The notes below the pieces were generated by a model, which did no database searches, had not been told where the DNA came from, and saw only the letters and a program-made list of their open reading frames with translations. A program made the position numbers and the translations under genes. Positions 1,246 through 35,720 of a stretch of 55,118 bases of DNA are shown one piece after another (the first letter of the stretch is position 1; every line of letters begins with the position of its first letter). This DNA is from a virus (lineage: Duplodnaviria > Heunggongvirae > Uroviricota > Caudoviricetes): IMG/VR virus record IMGVR_UViG_2563366941_000007, positions 1 to 55,118 of that record. One strand, given 5' to 3'.

Positions 1246-4200
1246 TATGCAAGCCTCACAATATAGTTAAATGCGATGTTTTTGACGGTGTTTTCCGCGT
1301 TACCAGCAGCGTTAACGGTGATGGTGTGTCCATGTGAACCAATCGCAACGGAGTGCGTATGAGCACCAATACCGACAGTATGTGCATGTGCGCCTGCGCT
1401 TGCAGCAGTGCCGGACAGCGAGTGGGTATGAGCACCATCTGATGATGTCTTCCCTGCATTACGAGTCTGGCCACTACCGCTTGTTGTGCTCATAATCCCC
1501 GCGCTTAGATTTGAAATCGCGGTATAACCATTAGGGAAAATGCTCGTGTTCGTGCCACCAAATGCACCGGAACTCTTGTGTTGGTGCGCACCGGCACTAT
1601 TTGCGGTCCCGCTAATACTATGGGTATGCGCCCCGGTGTTATTCGTGGATTTGGTTCCGTAATCAAACGACGATGTGGTTTTCGTCCCCAAATCCGTACT
1701 GGATGCGCTGGCGCTGTGGGTGTGCGATTTAATGCCGTCCTGTTCCTGAGATAATACGGCCCGACCACTGGCGGGCTTGCCCTTAATCGTCCAGCCACGC
1801 ATATCAGGGATCACGCCTGACGGATAAGCAACTGCAAGTTTCGGGTATGCAGATTTGTCAAAAGTCTGCCCCTGCATCAGGGCATAACCAGACGGAACGG
1901 TATCTGATGGCCACGGGATTGGTGCACCGACTGGATAAAACTCTGCAGGAGGATGAGCCGAGGTGTAAAGCTGCGCCCACGGCGACCAGTTTGCGTCGGT
2001 CGTATCCCGTCGTGAACGAATAAATGCCGGAGCATGAGCACCGCTTGTACCACTCCAGCCGATGAGTAACTCACCTTCGCCAACGGCTGTCATCCCTTTC
2101 AGGTGAATGATATTTCCATACGCTGTTGGATATCCGTTGTTATACACCTCGTATAACTCAAGACCTGCTGCCCCCTGCGTATTGTCTGTCAGCGCGGTTA
2201 CCCGACCTTTTGAAGCCAGATTAACTGATGATACTGCTGTTCCACCTGACGGTAACGCCCCGATCTCTGATGCCGTTGGCTTATTTCTGGAGTTATAGTC
2301 CCTTCGCCAGCCAGGTGAATAATCTGTTCCGTGATTAATATAGGTAAACTGGGCGTTAGTTGTTCCACCACCAGTGGAGGTGGTCGGTGTGGTAATGCGG
2401 ATCGTCATCGCTGACTTTATCCCCATTACTTCAATGACAGCTCCGGCGAGATGAATATTACCGCAGTCAGTATCAGTAATGATTTTATTATTGCCATAAG
2501 ACCAGGAACCCTTGCACATCCAGTATGGATGGTTAAATGCTCCCTGAGAATCCAGCCACTCGATAAACTGTGCAGTCGTCCAGTTTCCTGTTGTTGTGCT
2601 TACTGACCCACCGAAGGCACGGCAGGCACCAATATTTTTCGTAAAGGTATCTTTGCCAGGGATATCCGCACCGTTCTGATCTTTCTGCAGACGTTTCTCA
2701 GCATTGTCATTGGCTGCTTTTACTGCCTTTGGTGTCGCGGCAAGCGTTTCAGACGTGCTGTTGGTCGCGCTGCTTAGCTGGATTATCCCTTTCTGTGCTG
2801 TCGTTGCATCCTGTGCGGTGTATTTCCCGTTAGCCAGGTCATACGCGGCCTTAACGGCTTTTGGTGTTGCCGCCAGTGACTCGGAAGTGCTGTTAGTCGC
2901 ACTACTGAGCTGTACTATCCCCTTTTTCGTCGTGCTCGCATCCTCAAGCGCCACGGCGGATGCAATATCCTCTGCCCGTTTTGCTGCTGTCTCGGCGCGC
3001 GTTGCTGCGGATTCTGCCGTACTTTTGCTCTGTGCTGCCGCTGCCGCACTGCCAGCAGCCTCTGTCGCCTTCGTGGATGCCGTCGTGGCGCTGCCCCTCG
3101 CTGCTGACGCCTGTCTGGTCGCCTCATCTTTTGAAGCAGACGCCGATGATGCCGATGACGCCGCCGAACTGGCGGACGATGCGGCAGCCGTTTTTGAGGA
3201 TTCTGCGCTGGTTTCCGACGCTTTCGCGTTCGTTTCGGATGTCTTCGCTGCGGAAGCAGACCTCGCTGCTGCGCTGGCCTGTTCAGTGGCTTCGCCAGCC
3301 TTCGTTGTGGCTGTTGAAGCGGATGATGCGGCGCTTTCTGCCGATTTTCCGGCGGCGGTGGCACTGACTGCTGCCTCCTCTGCCTTAATGGACGCCTCAC
3401 GGGCCGATGATGCAGCTGTTGTCTCAGAGTCTGCCGCAGCTGAGGCGCTCTGTCCCGCTGCCGTTTCAGAAGACCTGGCGTTCGTCTCTGACGTTTTTGC
3501 CGCCTTCGCGGAATTTCCTGCCGCTGTTGCCGAGGAAGCTGCGCTACTGGCGCTCGAGGATGCGTTCGTTTCTGATGATTTCGCTGCCTCTTTTGAGGCC
3601 GCCGCATCCCGGGCTGAGGTGGCAGCTTCTGACGCCTTCGTGGTCGCGGCGGATGCAGAAGTGGCTGCTGATTGTTGTGACGCTGCCGCATTCGTTTCTG
3701 ACGTTTTCGCCGCAGCGGCACTGGTAGCTGCCGCGCTTTTTGAGGACTCTGCAGCAGCAGCACTTTTCGATGCTTCACTGGCCTTTGTTGATGCCGTTCC
3801 TGCGCTGGAAGATGCTGACTGAGCCGACGACGCGGCCTGTCCGGCTGACGTGCTGGCTGCGCGTGCTGAGCCTGCAGCATCAGTCGCATGGGTTGCCGCC
3901 TCACGGGCTGATGTGCTGGCATCGCTGGCTGACTTCTTCGCGGCTGCCGTGTTCTGTGCCACCGCGGACGCGTTACGCGCCACCTCTTCCACCATCAGTT
4001 CAAAACGGCGCAGTGCCTCAGGACGGGCATCATCCTCCGTCATGGCACCGAGAAAATCATTCAGCGTACCGGGTCGGGAATCTTCATACACGGTGATGGT
4101 CCCGGCATGTGACGGCGGGAATCCCTCCACCAACAGAATAACGCTGTACTGCCCGTACTCAACGTCCATGCTGTAACGCCCGGCTTCATCCGGATTTTCT

Positions 4201-4325
4201 GAGGCCAGCGTGTTCACCACCACCGTGGTGCTGTTACGTTTTGCTTTCAGCTGGATTGTGCAGTTCTGTACCGGTTTTCCTGTGCCGTCTTTCAGTACAC
4301 CTGAAATCTTTACTGCCATATTCAC
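1245..4325 (-). CDS. stf: Side tail fiber protein (Stf), long form with Ala/Ser-rich repeat region and GAHTHS C-terminal repeats
   Basis: 1026-aa ORF; conserved N-terminus [19 protein letters not shown]..., long low-complexity A/S/T-rich central region, C-terminal GAHTHS-type repeats. Confidence 0.9.
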
Positions 4326-4328
4326 CCC

Positions 4329-4357
4329 ACAAAAAAGCCCGCCTGAACCGGCGGGCT
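4329..4357 (-). terminator. Rho-independent terminator-like hairpin downstream of lom
   Basis: GC stem AGCCCGCC/GGCGGGCT with a T-run on the minus strand. Confidence 0.45.
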
Positions 4358-4383
4358 GTCATAACACTGTGTTACCTGGCTAA

Positions 4384-4983
4384 TCAGAATTTATAACCGA
4401 CACCCACGATGAAACCGTCAGTGCGCCAGTCACCACTGCCGGAGCCTTCATAAGCAATATCAATGGCCACGGATTCGGTCGGGTTAAACTGCACGCCAGC
4501 CCCCCACGCCAGAGACGTGTTGCTGTGGCGACCGTCATCACTTCCGGTCAGCACATCGTGCTTTTTCCCCTTGTTGTCAGTTACGCGGAGATAATCCCCG
4601 GAGAAAGTCGACACACGGCTGTAAGCCACACCCGCCATCGCATACGCGCTGAACCATTCATTCACGCGCACAGACGGCCCCGCCATTACGCTGAACCAGC
4701 GGTTACGAACGGAATCTTCATGCCAGCGGGTATCGCTGTAACGGGTCAGCTGGCGATTCTTGTCTCCTGCATAGCTGAATGACGTCACCAGCCCCAGTGT
4801 GTCCGTAAACTCATAACGGTATTTCACGTTAATCCCGTTCAGATCATCACTGCCGGGGACGTTCGTCGAGGCATGAAGATACCCCGCGCTCAGCGTGGAC
4901 TGATGTTCAGACGCCCATGCAGGCGCACCGGATACGGCCAGACAAATGGCTGCGGACAAAATTGCTGCACAAACTTTACGCAT
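4384..4983 (-). CDS. lom: Outer membrane protein Lom (Ail/Lom family)
   Basis: 199-aa ORF with signal peptide MRKVCAAILSAAICLAVSGAPAWA and near-identity to recalled lambda Lom. Confidence 0.95.
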   Translation of the reverse strand: MRKVCAAILSAAICLAVSGAPAWASEHQSTLSAGYLHASTNVPGSDDLNGINVKYRYEFTDTLGLVTSFSYAGDKNRQLTRYSDTRWHEDSVRNRWFSVMAGPSVRVNEWFSAYAMAGVAYSRVSTFSGDYLRVTDNKGKKHDVLTGSDDGRHSNTSLAWGAGVQFNPTESVAIDIAYEGSGSGDWRTDGFIVGVGYKF

Positions 4984-16903: not shown

Positions 16904-17694
16904 TTACGCCAGTTGAACGGACACGAACTCATCAGGATCAGCCAGCAGCATCAGCGGTGCTGACTGAATCATGGTGAACTCTCGCGCCGGATCGCCGGAT
17001 GTCTTCCAGTTTTTCGGATAACGGGGAGACGCATTAATACCCTCACTCAATGCATCCGCATCCTGAATACAGCCATAGGTGCGCAGACCGCGTGCATGAG
17101 TGTTACCCAGCACCATCGTGTTGTCCGGCAGGAAGTTCTTTTTGACGCCGTTTTCCACGTACTGTCCGGAATACACGACGATGGCCACATCTCCATACAT
17201 TCCCTTATAAGACACCGCTTTGCCCAGGTCTTTTACCGCTGTCTCCAGTTCGGAATGAGAGCCGCGACGGGTATCCAGCTTCTCCCTGACGGCTTTGAAG
17301 GAACGGAACAGCGCCCAGCCTTTCGGATCAAACACGATGATATTCACCACGCCGCTGGCGTTCAGCGCGTAGGCTTCGATATCGTCGGTCGGATCATACG
17401 TGGACTTGTCACGCTTGCTCCACTCCGTGCCGCCGGACTGCGTGATGTTGTTGGCCGCACTGCGGCCCATATCCACCTCAACCGGATCGAAGGCTTCACC
17501 AGTCATGGTGTATTTGCCCTTGAGCACGGCAGAAACGGCCTGCATCTCTTCGACCTGAGCAATGGCCAGCTCTTCGTCACGCATGTTCTGCATGATGATG
17601 CGACGGCGGCGGTAAGCCGGGTCCGCCAGATTCTGCGGATCTTCATCCGGCAGGCGACGCAGGGTCATCTGCGGATTCACCTCATGCTTGGGTT
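16904..17694 (-). pseudogene. E: Major capsid protein E, C-terminal fragment (codons from ...KPKHEVNPQMTLRRL to the stop)
   Basis: Translation matches about 260 C-terminal residues of lambda gpE; the N-terminal 91 codons lie 11.6 kb away at 29261..29536. Confidence 0.9.
17685..17694. repeat. 10-bp direct-repeat core TGCTTGGGTT, left copy (element/E junction)
   Basis: Identical 10-mer at 29292..29301; both sit exactly where E homology breaks. Confidence 0.8.
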
Positions 17695-17766
17695 ACATGA
17701 GTCAAATATGAAAGGAACTGAATGATTTTTAATGAAATAAATGGCTCTCTCTATCAAAATACAGCT

Positions 17767-17792
17767 AAAAAGCAATACACGTAGCAATACAG
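17767..17792. repeat. Tandem GCAATACA(N) motifs (AAAAAGCAATACACGTAGCAATACAG), candidate integrase arm-type sites, left end
   Basis: Near-identical motif AAAAAGCAATACAAGCTGCAATACAG at 29139..29164 at the opposite end of the element. Confidence 0.45.
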
Positions 17793-17821
17793 CGCTTCGC
17801 AAAGGTATGTCACTATATCTA

Positions 17822-18790
17822 CTAGTGCCAACCAGAATACGAATATCTTTGCTTTGCTTCTTCTGGGCTCATACCCACTAGTAAAGATACTAATTCAAAG
17901 TCAGGTTGTGGAATTGGAATCAATGCAGCCAAATATGCTGGCTTATTGAGAACAATTGTTGATAATTTAGCTTTATTCACCTTAGATAACTCAATATTAC
18001 TTTCCGCTACCTTCGGGAACTCCATAATAAATGAATCAATTTCCCTTATGAGATAATCGATCAACGCCACTATACTTTCTGTCAAATCAATATATTTTGA
18101 CAACTCACTAGCACCAATTTCTTTCTTTATTTCATCCAATTTAATTTCAAACACTGGCTTGTCTTTACTGGCAATATTAGACAAACGTTTCTTTAAATCT
18201 GAATCAAGCTGATTCCTGACAATTAAACTTTTCAAAACAAAATTATAATTAAACAAAAAAGCATCAATTCGAGCAATATTCCTCCATGACTTTCCAATTT
18301 CTTCATCTGACGGCATAATAAGTTCATGTTTTAGTATCTTGTACTTAATAAAAAAAACAAACCTCTCAAATAGAGATTTATTAGCTGTGGGTATCTTTTT
18401 TATAAATGAAAGACGGCTAATATCGAAATTTACCTCCCCGGCGTTAAATAAAAATTCATTTATTGCCAGCGCTCTTAATATTGGATTTCTAGATCTCAAA
18501 CCAATATAACTACTTTTAATTCCCACAAGTGTATTTATCATCTGAAAAGAAACCATCATAAGCGTATTAGCAGAATTAAATTTCTCCGTTTCTATTTTAA
18601 TCTTCTCCTGCCTATTATTGATGCAATAAGCAGTTAAGCCTCCCATAAGCGCCGATAAAAAAGATAATGCAATAGGGAATACATAATCTTTTGTATAATC
18701 AACATCTGCTTTCAACATTAGTATTGCTTTAGCAATCAAAACTGCATCAGGGGTCATGTTAGAGCCGTCATTAAAAATTAAACACAACAC
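17822..18790 (-). CDS. Hypothetical membrane-anchored protein (N-terminal TM segments plus ~250-aa soluble domain), AT-rich cargo gene
   Basis: 322-aa ORF in a conspicuously AT-rich segment; hydrophobic stretches AVLIAKAILML and VFPIALSFLSALMGGLTAYCI near the N-terminus; no recognisable family by eye. Confidence 0.55.
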   Translation of the reverse strand: MLCLIFNDGSNMTPDAVLIAKAILMLKADVDYTKDYVFPIALSFLSALMGGLTAYCINNRQEKIKIETEKFNSANTLMMVSFQMINTLVGIKSSYIGLRSRNPILRALAINEFLFNAGEVNFDISRLSFIKKIPTANKSLFERFVFFIKYKILKHELIMPSDEEIGKSWRNIARIDAFLFNYNFVLKSLIVRNQLDSDLKKRLSNIASKDKPVFEIKLDEIKKEIGASELSKYIDLTESIVALIDYLIREIDSFIMEFPKVAESNIELSKVNKAKLSTIVLNKPAYLAALIPIPQPDFELVSLLVGMSPEEAKQRYSYSGWH

Positions 18791-19454
18791 CCATAAAATA
18801 TAACAGCTTATTGTTTAGAAAAGCAATATCATACACTCTATGATAAGCGTAATATCTGACAGGCATGGTGTGTTACGACACTTAATTAAACGTAATTTGC
18901 TAAAATTTTACACACAGAATCACACCAGGCTCTAACTCTCCTTTCATTACAATTGTAAGCATACAATTATCCTACCAGAACTTTATTGTTGAGCTCTCCC
19001 TTTTGAGCCCATCCCATAATGAATTGACGAAAGAACCGTATCTGTGGAGTAATCATTTCTGCGCGGTTCTATGTCGAAGACAAAATGTGGTATGCGCATC
19101 TAGTCAGAGGGAAAGCAATTTTTCAGGGAAATATCATCTCTACATGGTTAAAACAACCAGAAGAAGTTATCAAGCAAGTTGGGTATGAAGATTTTCCTAT
19201 AATAGTAACGAAACGGGTTTCACCTGAGCGGTTGTGTTCGATCCGCCACAATACGCATAGGATGCCCTGTAATCCGTATTCTGCTTACTCAACAGCTTAC
19301 CAGCAGGACTCGTAAGGCTGTTGCGATAGTGCAGAAGTAGGCCACGACCATAAAGTGAAGCCAGTGGCGCGTTATCGACTACTTTAGTGTAGAGCCTGAT
19401 TTCAACGCAAGCATGAGAGTTTTTTCTGGCGATAGGCCGTGACAAACAGCAACA

Positions 19455-19675
19455 AAATCAGAGAAAGGAAACGGCAGAGGCCAAAAAGCCCGTTTTCAGC
19501 GCCTGTCATTTCCTTTCTTTTCAGGGGGTATTTTAAATAAAAACATAAAGTTACGGCAAAGAAGAACGGAAAAGCCTTAAACCGGAAAATTTCCATAAAT
19601 AGAGAAAAACTGCGCGCCTGACGCCCCGTAACGTTCTGGATCGCCGGAAAGGACCCGCCAGCCAGAGCGGGCCCT
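19455..19675. other. cos-like packaging site of the satellite (cosB R-site and IHF-site homologs; divergent cosN)
   Basis: Aligns base-for-base with much of the prophage cos region 35480..35720 (e.g. GAAAGGAAACGRCAGAGGCC, TTTCCTTTCTTTTCAGGGGGTATTTTAAATAAAAACAT, CCTTAAACCGGAAAATTT); differs at about 5 positions within the cosN-equivalent segment. Confidence 0.75.
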
Positions 19676-19682
19676 AATTTCA

Positions 19683-20066
19683 TCAACCAATCAGCTTATA
19701 GCGACCATCCCGTGCATTGCGGCGTACACGCTCAATCTTGAGGCATAGCGCCGCATCTGGCTTTTTTGGGACAGGTACGCGGCAATATTCAGAAGCGCGA
19801 GGAATATTATTTATCCAGTCGATCACTTCACTTAAATACCAGGCCTTACGCCCTTCCGTAACCTGCACACGCTCCGGGAACTCTCCACTAGCCTCAAGGT
19901 TTAGCAGTGTACGACGACTCAGGGTTGTAATTTCCATCACCTGATTCATATCAACAAGGCGCTCGCTTAAACACATTTTGTCAGCGATAGCTTTTAATTC
20001 CTCTACAGCTGGATTCGGGTACATCATTTCGGCAATTGGCTTAAGGTCATTGTAATCATTCTGCAT
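19683..20066 (-). CDS. AlpA/Nu1-like HTH protein next to cos; candidate packaging-redirection (Rpp-like) or regulatory protein
   Basis: 127-aa ORF with HTH-like segment MEITTLSRRTLLNLEASGEFPERVQVTEGRKAWYLSEVIDWI; functional call is inference from position beside cos. Confidence 0.45.
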   Translation of the reverse strand: MQNDYNDLKPIAEMMYPNPAVEELKAIADKMCLSERLVDMNQVMEITTLSRRTLLNLEASGEFPERVQVTEGRKAWYLSEVIDWINNIPRASEYCRVPVPKKPDAALCLKIERVRRNARDGRYKLIG

Positions 20067-26333: not shown

Positions 26334-26690
26334 ATGAAATACGAATTCTTCGCAACAAGTAGCAGTAGTTTGGATGTATACATAGTCACTGTATCAAACG
26401 ATTCTGGCTCTCTAATCATGACTTGTAATTGTCCAGCAGGAAGTAAAGGTATTCTATGTAGACACCGTAAAGCTTTAATTACCGGAAAAATCCGCGGTAT
26501 ATTCACTCCCCCAAGAAGGAATAATCCCGAAAAATTACAAGAAGCTATAAATTTAATAGCCACATATGGCATAGATAAAACATTAAAGTTGTACACTGAT
26601 GAGTTAGAACGAGCAGAACAGACTTGGATAAGTGTTCGCGATAATTTGAGAGCAATGATAAACGCTCTTGTTGAACCACCTAAATATTGA
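26334..26690 (+). CDS. Small SWIM-type zinc-finger protein (CxCx9CxH), AT-rich cargo gene
   Basis: 118 aa; motif MTCNCPAGSKGILCRH; strongly AT-rich coding sequence. Confidence 0.5.
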   Translation: MKYEFFATSSSSLDVYIVTVSNDSGSLIMTCNCPAGSKGILCRHRKALITGKIRGIFTPPRRNNPEKLQEAINLIATYGIDKTLKLYTDELERAEQTWISVRDNLRAMINALVEPPKY

Positions 26691-26821
26691 ACTGTTCACA
26701 TTGCCTATCAGGCGATAACCTCGTATTCTGATTAAGGCTAACTATATACTCACATTGGCGACCAATTCTGGTCGCCTTTATCTACCATTTTTATAATATC
26801 ATAGATTAAGAGTGTTAATCC

Positions 26822-27676
26822 TTACCCCCTGAATGGAATTGATGAGGATTTAATTTCCACAGAACCAAATCCTCTTGAATCCAAAAACATTTTTATACCA
26901 GCCTCAATAAAATCATAATCGCTTGTCGGGCCAATTGTAATGCTTTTAATTGGTAACTTTCTATTATCTTTATTATTAATAATGATATAAGGGATGATAC
27001 CATTATTATTTATTCTAAATTTCACATCTGGCATTTGTATCCACGGAGTAAACACCAGTCTAAATTCATTTTCTTCGATAAAACTAGGATGTTTAAAAAA
27101 TGGGATATATTTAGATATAAATTGATACGTAGAGACCATTGTTACAAAATGATCATTCATTTCTTTAATGTTAATACCATTACAAGAAAAAAACTCATCC
27201 AACTCCTTACTCATCTTTGTAATATCGTCATTATTTGAATATATAACATCATGTGCAACACAATTTAAATAAATATTTTGACAAAAACTCACAAGTTCAT
27301 CCGCATCAAATTCAATGCAAACGCCCTGTTTATTTCCGTAACCTCTCCACTGACTTAACTTATCGTTTTCTTTACAAAAAGATATGCTATAAACATGTTT
27401 ATCAATCCCTTTTTCTTTTTGTAACTTCCCTTTCTCATACATGTCAAGAGACTTGAGCAAAATAGTTTTCTTATCTTTTGGGATGATATTATCATCAACT
27501 ATTTTAATTGTATTTCGAAAACATTCACATCCATGGTTAGACTCCTCTTTATCATTTAAGAAATATATATTTGTAGCCCATAAAGAATTAGAGTCTAATA
27601 TACCTTTCAAACCAAAAAGATCTGTATAATGAAATATAGCCACAATGCCCCACCTAATAGTTAAGTCGTTTCCCAC
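26822..27676 (-). CDS. DUF2971-like protein, AT-rich cargo gene (candidate defence-associated)
   Basis: 284 aa; N-terminal FHYTDLFGLKGILDSNSLWATNIYFLNDKEE fits the DUF2971 signature as recalled; AT-rich. Confidence 0.55.
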   Translation of the reverse strand: MGNDLTIRWGIVAIFHYTDLFGLKGILDSNSLWATNIYFLNDKEESNHGCECFRNTIKIVDDNIIPKDKKTILLKSLDMYEKGKLQKEKGIDKHVYSISFCKENDKLSQWRGYGNKQGVCIEFDADELVSFCQNIYLNCVAHDVIYSNNDDITKMSKELDEFFSCNGINIKEMNDHFVTMVSTYQFISKYIPFFKHPSFIEENEFRLVFTPWIQMPDVKFRINNNGIIPYIIINNKDNRKLPIKSITIGPTSDYDFIEAGIKMFLDSRGFGSVEIKSSSIPFRG

Positions 27677-29260: not shown

Positions 29261-29536
29261 CTACACGAAAGCCTCAGAAAGCCATGCTAAGTGCTTGGGT
29301 TTGACATATCCCGGCGTAAATTCAGAGGTGGAGCCGCCACGGGAGCGGATAACCTCACCGGAAACAATCGGCGAAACGTACAGCGCCATGTTTACCAGTC
29401 CCGGAATTTGTGAGAGATAGACTTTCTCCGTAGTGAAGGGATAGCTCTCACGGAAAAAGAGACGCAGAAACAGCGGATCAAACTTAAATTTCTGCTCATT
29501 TGCCGCCAGCAGTTGGGCGGTTGTGTACATCGACAT
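29261..29536 (-). pseudogene. E: Major capsid protein E, N-terminal fragment (91 codons) fused to 9 element-derived codons
   Basis: MSMYTTAQLLAANEQKFKFDPLFLRLFFRESYPFTTEKVYLSQIPGLVNMALYVSPIVSGEVIRSRGGSTSEFTPGYVKPKH then LAWLSEAFV-stop. Confidence 0.9.
29292..29301. repeat. 10-bp direct-repeat core TGCTTGGGTT, right copy (element/E junction)
   Basis: Identical to 17685..17694. Confidence 0.8.
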
Positions 29537-35480: not shown

Positions 35481-35720
35481 TGTTCATTCCACGGCCAAAA
35501 ACAGAGAAAGGAAACGACAGAGGCCCAAAAGCTCGTTTTCAGCACCTGTCGTTTCCTTTCTTTTCAGGGGGTATTTTAAATAAAAACATTAAGTTACGAC
35601 GAAGAAGAACGGAAATGCCTTAAACCGGAAAATTTTCATAAATAGCGAAAACCCGCGAGGTCGCCGCCCCGTAACCTGTCGGATCGCCGGAAAGGACCCG
35701 CAAAATGATAATAATTATCA
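35480..35720. other. cos: Prophage cos site (cosB R-sites/IHF site and cosN; cohesive-end 12-mer AGGTCGCCGCCC at 35667..35678 on the plus strand)
   Basis: Reverse complement of the lambda left-end sequence GGGCGGCGACCTCGCGGGTTTTCGCTATTTATGAAAATTTTCCGG..., directly upstream of Nu1. Confidence 0.9.

What the first reader, a model, noticed from the sequence alone, without database searches (positions are those of the whole stretch)
17822..18790. Second AT-rich cargo gene at the 3' end of the satellite: 322-aa membrane-anchored protein of unknown family
This gene sits between the cos-like site and the far att junction, the position of the second accessory hotspot in satellite-type elements. It encodes an N-terminal hydrophobic anchor (one or two predicted TM segments) followed by a ~250-aa soluble domain and is strongly AT-rich. 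A ~650-bp stretch with no convincing ORF separates it from cos. Membrane-anchored single-gene effectors are a common form of abortive-infection or superinfection-exclusion proteins.
Basis: inference. Interest (0 to 1): 0.6.

Follow-up and report, generated by a model that had tools for sequence, protein, structure and literature searches.

The report
Uncharacterised membrane-anchored cargo gene in satellite
A real, conserved gene for a membrane-anchored protein of unknown family sits in the swappable cargo slot at the far end of a phage satellite that is inserted in its helper prophage's capsid gene; it is a reasonable but untested candidate anti-phage gene.

Summary
The ORF at 17822-18790 (-) is a real gene, with dN/dS of about 0.1 against homologues in three other genera. 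The true start is most likely ATG 18757, giving 311 aa rather than 322. It has 32% GC, one N-terminal TM helix and an all-helical C-terminal domain. It lies between a lambda-type cos site (19452-19658) and the att core (17685-17694) of an 11.6-kb '11capE'-type helper-embedded PICI. That satellite interrupts the lambda-E-like capsid gene of a lambdoid prophage, a configuration already published.

The slot is a genuine swap site. Sibling satellites at the same site carry a TIR protein, a restriction endonuclease, DUF262+HEPN or DUF2971 instead. Homologues occur in several other mobile contexts:
- the P2 old/tin hotspot of phage AC1, next to but outside the validated 2TM+1TM+TIR system;
- beside PD-T7-1 and beside a SIR2 protein;
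- on plasmids;
- between tail genes I and J in at least four lambdoid prophages.

No Pfam, NCBIfam, PADLOC or PDB relative was found, only PHROG 21267, which has no known function. Function is therefore inferred. I favour a stand-alone inner-membrane anti-phage protein, either abortive-infection-like or superinfection exclusion. It is a new candidate of a known kind and of moderate interest.

The parts
17822..18757 (-). Coding sequence of the 311-aa protein (stop codon 17822-17824; ATG 18755-18757)
   Evidence: ORF list. The start is set by PHROG 21267 alignment, by the homologue alignment and by the E. cloacae upstream comparison. Purifying selection, dN/dS 0.10-0.24.
18617..18685 (-). Single transmembrane helix (residues 25-47) carrying a conserved small-xxx-small pattern S35/G39/A43 plus A36/G40
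   Evidence: Hydropathy. Invariant columns S35 A36 G39 G40 A43. Helix 21-81 in the AlphaFold2 model. Flanking charges over 61 family members: K+R 1.75 on the N side against 3.28 on the C side.
18758..18790 (-). Upstream extension of the mechanical ORF (GTG 18790); probably 5' UTR and not translated
   Evidence: Not conserved as coding in E. cloacae. Homologues and the PHROG profile start at the ATG.
18797..18826 (-). Candidate own promoter: -35 TTGCTT (18821-18826), 18-nt spacer, extended -10 TGT-TATATT (18797-18805)
   Evidence: Read by eye on the alignment of the E. coli and E. cloacae upstream regions, where both elements are conserved. The consensus scan did not call it. This is inference only.
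18350..18357 (-). T8 homopolymer inside the gene; a T7 allele splits the ORF in 3 of 17 E. coli complete genomes
17714..19190 (.). Variable cargo module of the satellite (swap slot). Similarity to sibling satellites carrying other cargo stops at 17713 and resumes at about 19193-19321
   Evidence: BLAST against the TIR-bearing sibling L003. Coverage pattern in E. coli genomes. Alternative cargos.
17771..17790 (-). Doubled GTATTGCT motif of the HE-PICI attP arm, 81-100 bp from the att centre; it bounds the slot 32 nt after the stop codon
   Evidence: Position matches Tommasini et al. 2023 (PMC10111431).
17685..17694 (-). att identity block (AACCCAAGCA) at the end of the satellite next to the cargo gene; second copy at 29292-29301
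   Evidence: Joining the capsid reading frame across the two sites reconstitutes a lambda-E-like protein.
19452..19658 (-). Satellite cos site (cosQ/cosN/cosB-like); the cosN-equivalent 12-mer is at 19615-19626
   Evidence: 89% identity to helper cos 35496-35701 and 91% to lambda cosB.
19683..20066 (-). AlpA-like helix-turn-helix gene, the last conserved satellite gene before cos and the cargo slot
   Evidence: ORF. RefSeq annotation of the identical locus. The corresponding gene in the Citrobacter PICI hits Phage_AlpA.
16904..17680 (-). 3' part of the interrupted helper major capsid gene (lambda E-like), directly downstream of the satellite end
   Evidence: annotated 'major capsid protein, missing N-terminus'.

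Best explanation
Shown:
- The gene encodes a conserved 311-aa protein with one N-terminal TM helix and an all-helical domain.
- It is the sole occupant of the swappable 3' cargo slot, between cos and the attP arm, of an 11capE-type helper-embedded PICI.
- Relatives travel as single genes on satellites, P2-like and lambdoid prophages, integrative islands and plasmids.

Inferred:
- It is a stand-alone anti-phage protein that benefits the lysogen and thereby the satellite.
- It is expressed from its own weak promoter, and also by read-through of helper late transcription.
- The favoured mode is AbiP-like. The protein is tethered to the inner membrane with its helical domain in the cytoplasm. That domain recognises a phage component or an infection cue at the membrane. 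The TM helices, which carry a small-xxx-small motif, then associate and compromise membrane function, aborting the infection.

My estimates: an anti-phage role of some kind about 0.6; this particular abortive-type mode about 0.3-0.35.
For: - Slot variability. Otherwise syntenic satellites at the same att site carry TIR-DUF3298, 'restriction endonuclease', DUF262+HEPN or DUF2971 in this slot.
- PICI 3' ends are a reported immune hotspot (PMC11364771).
- Homologue neighbourhoods:
  - P2 old/tin hotspot of AC1, next to the validated 2TM+1TM+TIR system (PMC9122126);
  - adjacent to PD-T7-1 in a Leclercia island;
  - near a 652-aa SIR2_2 protein in E. cloacae;
  - the same terminal slot of a chromosomal Citrobacter PICI;
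  - plasmids.
- Strong purifying selection.
- Conserved TM with invariant S35/A36/G39/G40/A43.
- Charge bias favours N-out/C-in.
- Invariant polar residues in the helical domain across 72 distant members: K81, R95 and E227, with N170 and D234 nearly invariant.
- All copies are AT-rich, 31-39% GC, as is typical of horizontally moving cargo.
- 3 of 17 E. coli copies are frameshifted, which is compatible with a costly gene.
Against: - There is no experimental evidence for any family member.
- No hit to 5027 PADLOC models for this protein or for 71 relatives, and no Pfam or NCBIfam family.
- In phage AC1 the cloned three-gene fragment lacking the homologue reproduced the lysogen's defence phenotype, so the homologue was not needed for it.
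- The topology call rests on a modest charge difference.
- Guilt by association with hotspots also fits non-defence morons.
- The family is rare: 17 of 5426 E. coli genomes, 1 of 50,697 phage records and 1 of 72,556 plasmids.
Confidence: 0.4

Rival explanations
1. Superinfection exclusion. The protein sits in the inner membrane and blocks genome entry of incoming siphophages, for example by interfering with the tape-measure or tail-tip route through the membrane. No cell death is involved.
For: In at least four different lambdoid prophage lineages the homologue is inserted between tail assembly gene I (phrog_32) and tail-tip gene J. From my own knowledge, known exclusion genes sit next to the tail genes they are coupled to: cor, T5 llp and HK97 gene 15. 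The protein is a single gene with a conserved membrane anchor and no enzymatic signature. The family has a narrow gammaproteobacterial distribution.
Against: The charge bias predicts that the 260-aa conserved domain is cytoplasmic. Known injection blockers are mostly small proteins, by recollection. The family also sits in hotspots and plasmids with no linkage to tail genes. The 24-40 bp gaps to gene I in prophages suggest late co-transcription rather than a classic lysogen-expressed moron.
Confidence: 0.25
2. Orphan or auxiliary membrane effector that works only with a partner supplied elsewhere, for example a TIR-type signal producer. It would be inert on its own in this satellite.
For: The AC1 homologue lies directly downstream of a TIR plus TM-protein system. 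The sibling slot allele is a TIR protein. In one C. freundii island the homologue is tightly flanked by 367-aa and 485-aa unknown proteins, with a 3-bp gap upstream.
Against: It is the only gene in the slot here, and the spacer holds no degraded partner. It is solitary in most contexts. The AC1 system works without it. It does not match the TM components of that system.
Confidence: 0.08
3. A function serving the mobile element's own lytic cycle, such as a late membrane protein that adjusts lysis timing or protects the producing cell, rather than defence of the lysogen.
For: The gene is co-oriented with the helper late operon and with all satellite genes, so helper late transcription should read into it (PMC10111431). 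No terminator-like site is found around it. In lambdoid prophages it sits inside the tail operon. Its architecture of a short N-terminus, one TM and a large C-terminal domain resembles class III holins, by recollection.
Against: The same family occurs on plasmids and in chromosomal islets without any lytic machinery. The slot is dispensable and replaced by TIR, REase or HEPN genes in siblings.
Confidence: 0.08
4. A passenger with a host-fitness role unrelated to phages, or a decaying gene of no current use in E. coli.
For: It is rare in E. coli (17 of 5426 genomes), and 3 of those 17 copies are frameshifted at a T8 tract. A truncated-product cluster has 90 member sequences. No functional domain is recognisable.
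Against: dN/dS is about 0.1 across genera. The length and motifs are conserved in 337 clusters of the 50%-identity protein library. The family is repeatedly associated with phage-related mobile elements and defence genes.
Confidence: 0.1

Closest known systems
3'-terminal immune cargo of Gram-negative PICIs (Fillol-Salom et al. 2022, as summarised in PMC11364771)
   Same: The position is the same: the end of the satellite opposite int, after the packaging/cos region and against attR. The cargo is single-gene and AT-rich, and is replaced by other defence-type genes in sibling elements.
   Different: The protein matches none of the defence families in PADLOC v2. No activity has been tested. I could not read the 2022 paper, so I could not check whether one of its hypothetical-protein systems is a relative.
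11capE-type helper-embedded PICI (Tommasini, Mageeney and Williams 2023, PMC10111431)
   Same: The carrier element matches. It is an 11.6-kb element in the lambda-E-like capsid gene with a 10-bp identity block. It has the doubled TGTATTGC motif about 81 bp from the att centre. It has its own capsid gene, and cos at the same place.
   Different: That paper defines integration, Bro, replication and late zones. It does not describe a defence-type swap slot between cos and attR. 'Defense' occurs once in the text and no passage I read concerned the slot.
P2 old/tin hotspot and the AC1 2TM+1TM+TIR system (Rst_2TM_1TM_TIR; Rousset et al. 2022, PMC9122126)
   Same: A 27%-identical, full-length homologue (E 3e-16) occupies the last position of that hotspot in phage AC1, right after the three validated genes.
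   Different: The homologue is not one of the three system proteins. It also lies outside the cloned fragment: L002 750-3547 against the gene at 3914-4831. The window has no TIR or other TM partner.
Lactococcal AbiP (membrane-anchored abortive-infection protein; my own recollection, not tested here)
   Same: The architecture is similar: an N-terminal membrane anchor followed by a cytoplasmic domain, acting as a single gene.
   Different: No sequence or fold similarity was tested or found. The hosts are unrelated. AbiP's nucleic-acid binding has no counterpart that I could detect.
Exclusion morons next to tail genes (HK97 gene 15, cor, T5 llp; my own recollection)
   Same: These are AT-rich single genes for envelope proteins inserted in or beside the tail module. 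Homologues of this protein sit between I and J in four prophage lineages.
   Different: Those proteins are small or are lipoproteins, and none is a relative. This protein has a large, probably cytoplasmic domain.

Membership tests
PHROG 21267 (phage protein family, function unknown) | Full-length match to the family profile | tested here: met
   E 1.1e-132, residues 12-322 against profile positions 1-291 of 291.
Rst_2TM_1TM_TIR (AC1 system) | The protein is one of the three components (2TM-TIR, 1TM-TIR, TIR-TM) | tested here: not met
   The PADLOC models hit AC1's 126-, 185- and 315-aa proteins. They hit neither the AC1 305-aa homologue nor the window protein.
Rst_2TM_1TM_TIR (AC1 system) | A TIR gene and the TM partners are adjacent | tested here: not met
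   It is the only gene in the slot, and the spacer shows no similarity to TIR or the TM partners, all E > 1.
Any defence family in PADLOC-DB v2.0.0 | HMM match | tested here: not met
   0 families at E <= 1 for the protein and 0 for 72 family members at E <= 1e-3.
Pfam / NCBIfam families | HMM match above the curated cut-off | tested here: not met
   The best Pfam hit has E 0.021 and lies below the cut-off. NCBIfam gave none. None of the 72 relatives matched.
PICI 3' accessory (immune) hotspot cargo | Located at the satellite end opposite int, between packaging/cos and att | tested here: met
   cos at 19452-19658, gene at 17822-18757, attP-arm motif at 17771-17790, att core at 17685-17694.
PICI 3' accessory (immune) hotspot cargo | Content varies among otherwise collinear sibling elements and includes recognised defence genes | tested here: met
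   TIR-DUF3298, restriction endonuclease, DUF262+HEPN and DUF2971 alleles occur at the same site with 96-98% identical flanks.
PICI 3' accessory (immune) hotspot cargo | Confers resistance to phages | not testable with these tools
   Needs plaque and liquid infection assays.
HE-PICI, 11capE type (carrier element) | Integration within the lambda-E-like capsid gene of a lambdoid prophage, with a short identity block | tested here: met
   10-bp block at 17685-17694 and 29292-29301. The capsid reading frame is split across the two sites.
HE-PICI, 11capE type (carrier element) | Doubled TGTATTGC motif 81 +/- 2 bp from the attP centre | tested here: met
   GTATTGCT x2 at 17771-17790, which is 81-100 bp from 17690.
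Abortive-infection or superinfection-exclusion proteins (functional classes) | Membrane localisation | tested here: inconclusive
   One strongly conserved predicted TM helix. This is in silico only, and the topology is uncertain.
Abortive-infection or superinfection-exclusion proteins (functional classes) | Infection-dependent cell death, or a block of DNA entry | not testable with these tools
   Requires experiments.

The most novel reading that the evidence does not exclude
The family is a previously unrecognised single-protein, inner-membrane-anchored anti-phage system. It shuttles between satellite cargo slots, the P2 hotspot, plasmids and the I-J interval of lambdoid tail modules. Its recurrent linkage to tail-tip genes would reflect a mechanism aimed at the genome-entry or membrane step of siphophage infection.
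Probability: 0.4. Interest if true: 0.5.

Novelty: new member of a known kind. Interest (0 to 1): 0.4.

Why it matters
If validated, this would add one more stand-alone membrane-based defence or exclusion family. It would also show that helper-embedded PICIs have a defence swap slot squeezed between cos and the attP arm. That would extend the satellite hotspot picture to elements living inside their helper. The practical value is a short, well-delimited test fragment and a set of natural alleles of the same slot (TIR, REase, DUF262+HEPN, DUF2971) for comparison. The family is rare and there are many such candidates, so the expected impact is moderate.

Tried and rejected
- GTG 18790 as the start: rejected.
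- A second TM segment: rejected.
- Membership of the AC1 2TM+1TM+TIR system. I suspected this after the tblastn hit to P2_AC1. The PADLOC models and the primer positions of the cloned fragment rule it out.
- A degraded partner or Nu1-like gene in the 694-bp spacer: no similarity. The spacer occurs only together with this cargo.
- A known RNA in the spacer or the satellite: no Rfam hit at E <= 0.1.
- Known fold:
  - Foldseek against PDB and BFVD gave nothing.
  - The PDB sequence profile search gave nothing.
  - The AFDB library was unavailable.
- Consensus promoter and terminator scan: nothing above chance.
- Conserved phase-variation tract: the T8 run is not conserved in homologues.
- The second word-indexed profile search added almost nothing.
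- The Fillol-Salom 2022 paper is not held.
- The protein accession and 'HE-PICI' terms returned no paper that characterises the gene.

Full report
**1. The observation**

The mechanical ORF 17822..18790 on the minus strand exists. Its GTG start is probably wrong.
- PHROG 21267 aligns from residue 12.
- Every homologue starts at the MTPDA methionine.
- The 82%-identical Enterobacter cloacae copy has no in-frame start upstream of that ATG.

I therefore take 17822..18757, 311 aa.

The gene is 32% GC. The helper prophage flanks are 57% and the satellite as a whole is 44%.

It is under strong purifying selection. dN/dS is 0.10, 0.10, 0.11 and 0.24 against copies from E. cloacae, Leclercia, Citrobacter sp. 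and C. freundii, at dS 0.8-2.1.

There is one TM helix, at residues 25-47. AlphaFold2 used a 20-sequence alignment and gave mean pLDDT 86 and pTM 0.77. It predicts a short amphipathic N-terminal helix, a long helix (21-81) that contains the TM segment, and an all-alpha domain. The second hydrophobic patch near the C-terminus is proline-rich and below TM level.

**2. The setting**

The window is a lambdoid prophage whose lambda-E-like major capsid gene is split.
- The 5' part ends at about 29300 and the 3' part starts at about 17690.
- A 10-bp identity block, AACCCAAGCA, lies at 17685-17694 and 29292-29301.

The 11.6 kb between the two blocks encode integrase, HTH regulators, a DUF2971 and a SWIM protein, an Icd-like protein, primase, SSB, their own E-like capsid and decoration proteins, and an AlpA-like protein. 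This is the annotation of the 99.5%-identical locus in strain LR-50.

This is the '11capE' helper-embedded PICI of Tommasini, Mageeney and Williams 2023 (PMC10111431).
- That paper reports a 10-bp identity block in E.
- It reports a cos-like segment shared with the helper.
- It reports a doubled TGTATTGC motif 81 +/- 2 bp from the attP centre.
- I find that motif at 17771-17790.

The satellite cos is real. Region 19452-19658 is 89% identical to the helper's own cos (35496-35701) and 91% identical to lambda cosB.

The target gene therefore lies 694 bp downstream of cos. Its stop codon is 32 nt from the attP-arm motif, which is as far 3' as a cargo gene can sit.

**3. The slot is a swap site**

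Against a sibling satellite in strain DSM 103246, similarity stops at 17713 and resumes at 19321. In between, that sibling carries a 380-aa TIR-DUF3298 protein on the opposite strand.

I searched 5426 complete E. coli genomes with a query spanning both flanks. The same site with 96-98% identical flanks holds:
- this gene, in 17 genomes;
- a TIR protein, in at least 16;
- a 'restriction endonuclease', in 3;
- DUF262 plus HEPN proteins;
- DUF2971 plus a small terminase subunit;
- other hypothetical proteins.

The gene occurs in E. coli only in this slot and only in those 17 genomes. The unique spacer 18780-19190 co-occurs with it.

PICIs are stated to carry immune systems at their 5' or 3' ends (PMC11364771). 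The kind of locus is therefore known. The HE-PICI paper itself does not describe this slot.

**4. What the protein is related to**

Sequence and fold searches:
- No Pfam, NCBIfam or PADLOC family.
- The word-indexed search found 22 clusters, all 'hypothetical' and all Enterobacteriaceae.
- A full HMMER profile search found 337 clusters at E <= 1e-3. Most are 280-320 aa.
- These include Pseudoalteromonas, Zhongshania, Gilvimarinus and Buttiauxella.
- None of 72 diverse members hits Pfam or PADLOC.
- The PDB sequence profile search gave nothing.
- Foldseek against PDB and BFVD gave nothing significant.

Residues invariant across the broad family are L77, K81, R95 and E227. P28, N64, Y84, P92, N170 and D234 are nearly invariant. 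Within the enterobacterial clade, the TM helix has invariant S35, A36, G39, G40 and A43. This is a small-xxx-small pattern that in other proteins mediates helix association, which is my inference.

Over 61 members, the 15 residues before the TM carry 1.75 K+R on average and the 15 after it carry 3.28. Acidic counts are equal. This favours N-out/C-in, with the helical domain in the cytoplasm. It is a modest signal.

**5. Where relatives live**

- Phage P2_AC1. A 305-aa homologue (27% identity, E 3e-16) is the last gene of the old/tin hotspot.
  - The three genes before it are the validated 2TM+1TM+TIR system, by PADLOC models and Table S2A of PMC9122126.
  - The primers of the active clone pFD240 map to L002 750-3547, so the homologue at 3914-4831 was not in it.
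  - It is therefore a neighbour of a defence system, not a component of one, and it is untested.
- A Leclercia integrative island, next to a PD-T7-1 homologue and a WYL regulator.
- An E. cloacae chromosomal islet.
  - It lies near a 652-aa SIR2_2 protein.
  - The copy retains the HE-PICI attP arm downstream, so it is a satellite remnant.
- A chromosomally integrated Citrobacter PICI, in the same terminal slot after a Nu1-like gene.
- A Rouxiella plasmid contig and an Erwinia pyri conjugative plasmid.
- A C. freundii island, tightly flanked by two unknown proteins.
- At least four lambdoid prophage lineages: C. freundii, Lelliottia, Enterobacteriaceae G50 and a metagenomic one. In these it sits between tail assembly gene I (phrog_32) and tail-tip gene J, with gaps of only 18-64 bp.

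All copies are 31-39% GC.

**6. Expression**

The consensus scan finds no promoter or terminator above chance.

The 147 bp upstream of the ATG are conserved with the E. cloacae copy. They contain a plausible extended -10 (TGT-TATATT, 18797-18805) with a weak -35 (TTGCTT, 18821-18826). This is inference.

The gene is co-oriented with the helper late operon. Anti-terminated late transcription should therefore also read through it, as proposed for 11capE genes in general (PMC10111431).

**7. Interpretation**

Shown:
- It is a real, conserved, membrane-anchored protein of an uncharacterised family.
- It is the sole cargo of a bona fide swap slot in a known kind of satellite.
- Its family is spread over many kinds of mobile elements, often beside defence genes.

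Inferred: an anti-phage role, which I put at about 0.6.

I favour an AbiP-like mode, in which a cytoplasmic sensing domain is tethered to the membrane and TM association damages membrane function. I put that at about 0.3-0.35.
- The conserved domain is large and probably cytoplasmic.
- The alternative slot alleles are intracellular immune proteins.
- Some copies are frameshifted, which suggests a cost.

Superinfection exclusion at the inner membrane is nearly as likely, at about 0.25. The recurrent I-J placement next to tail-tip genes mirrors cor, llp and HK97 gene 15, which I cite from memory.

The minor rivals are an orphan effector needing a partner, a late function for the element itself, and a phage-unrelated or decaying passenger.

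The AC1 result weighs against a necessary role in that phage's lambda/LF82_P8 defence, but it says nothing about other targets.

**8. Novelty and score**

The carrier element and the idea of terminal defence hotspots in satellites are published. The protein family is not characterised in any library or paper I could search.

I rate it a new candidate member of a known kind. Interest is 0.4: it is a clean, testable candidate, but rare, without a mechanistic clue from sequence or fold, and one of many such candidates.

Noticed in passing
window 19615-19626 and 35658-35669: The satellite's cosN-equivalent 12-mer is GGGCGTCAGGCG. The helper has the lambda sequence GGGCGGCGACCT, so 5 of 12 positions differ. 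The flanking cosQ/cosB sequence is about 89% identical. Satellite and helper would therefore have non-complementary cohesive ends.
   Followed up: partly
window 18350-18357: There is a T8 run inside the target gene. A T7 allele is the only difference in strain GPEC1446 and splits the ORF into 141- and 164-aa pieces. Three of 17 E. coli genomes show this. A truncated-product cluster has 90 member sequences. This could be homopolymer assembly error or real on/off slippage. The tract is not conserved in homologues.
   Followed up: partly
window 26334-27676: This is the first AT-rich accessory region, next to the integrase and HTH genes. It holds a DUF2971 protein (26822-27676, -) and a SWIM zinc-finger protein (26334-26690, +). 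It gives only weak PADLOC candidate hits, PDC-S31 and PDC-S62 at E ~1e-4. DUF2971 also appears as an allele of the 3' slot in sibling satellites.
   Followed up: partly
L010 10937-11075 (E. cloacae chromosomal contig): Downstream of the E. cloacae homologue, the HE-PICI attP arm with its doubled motif and an att-like core are retained. No integrase lies within 10 kb. This is apparently the stranded 3' end of a satellite, next to a SIR2_2 gene.
   Followed up: partly
L024 5934-7289 (Enterobacteriaceae bacterium G50 prophage): The K-I interval of this lambdoid tail module carries an HxlR regulator and a metallo-beta-lactamase-fold protein with a weak Anti-Pycsar Apyc1 hit. They lie just upstream of the I-homologue-J arrangement, so this tail-tip region collects morons of both kinds.
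   Followed up: no
L002 3700-3910 (phage P2_AC1): Between the TIR gene and the homologue there is a short lipoprotein-like ORF: an MKRKLI... start and an LLAGC lipobox in different frames across a T5G5 run. It looks frameshifted. I read this by eye from the sequence printed.
   Followed up: no
window 19402-19644: RefSeq annotates an 80-aa 'hypothetical protein' in some genomes (L001 15803-16045). It overlaps the cos site and is most likely spurious.
   Followed up: no
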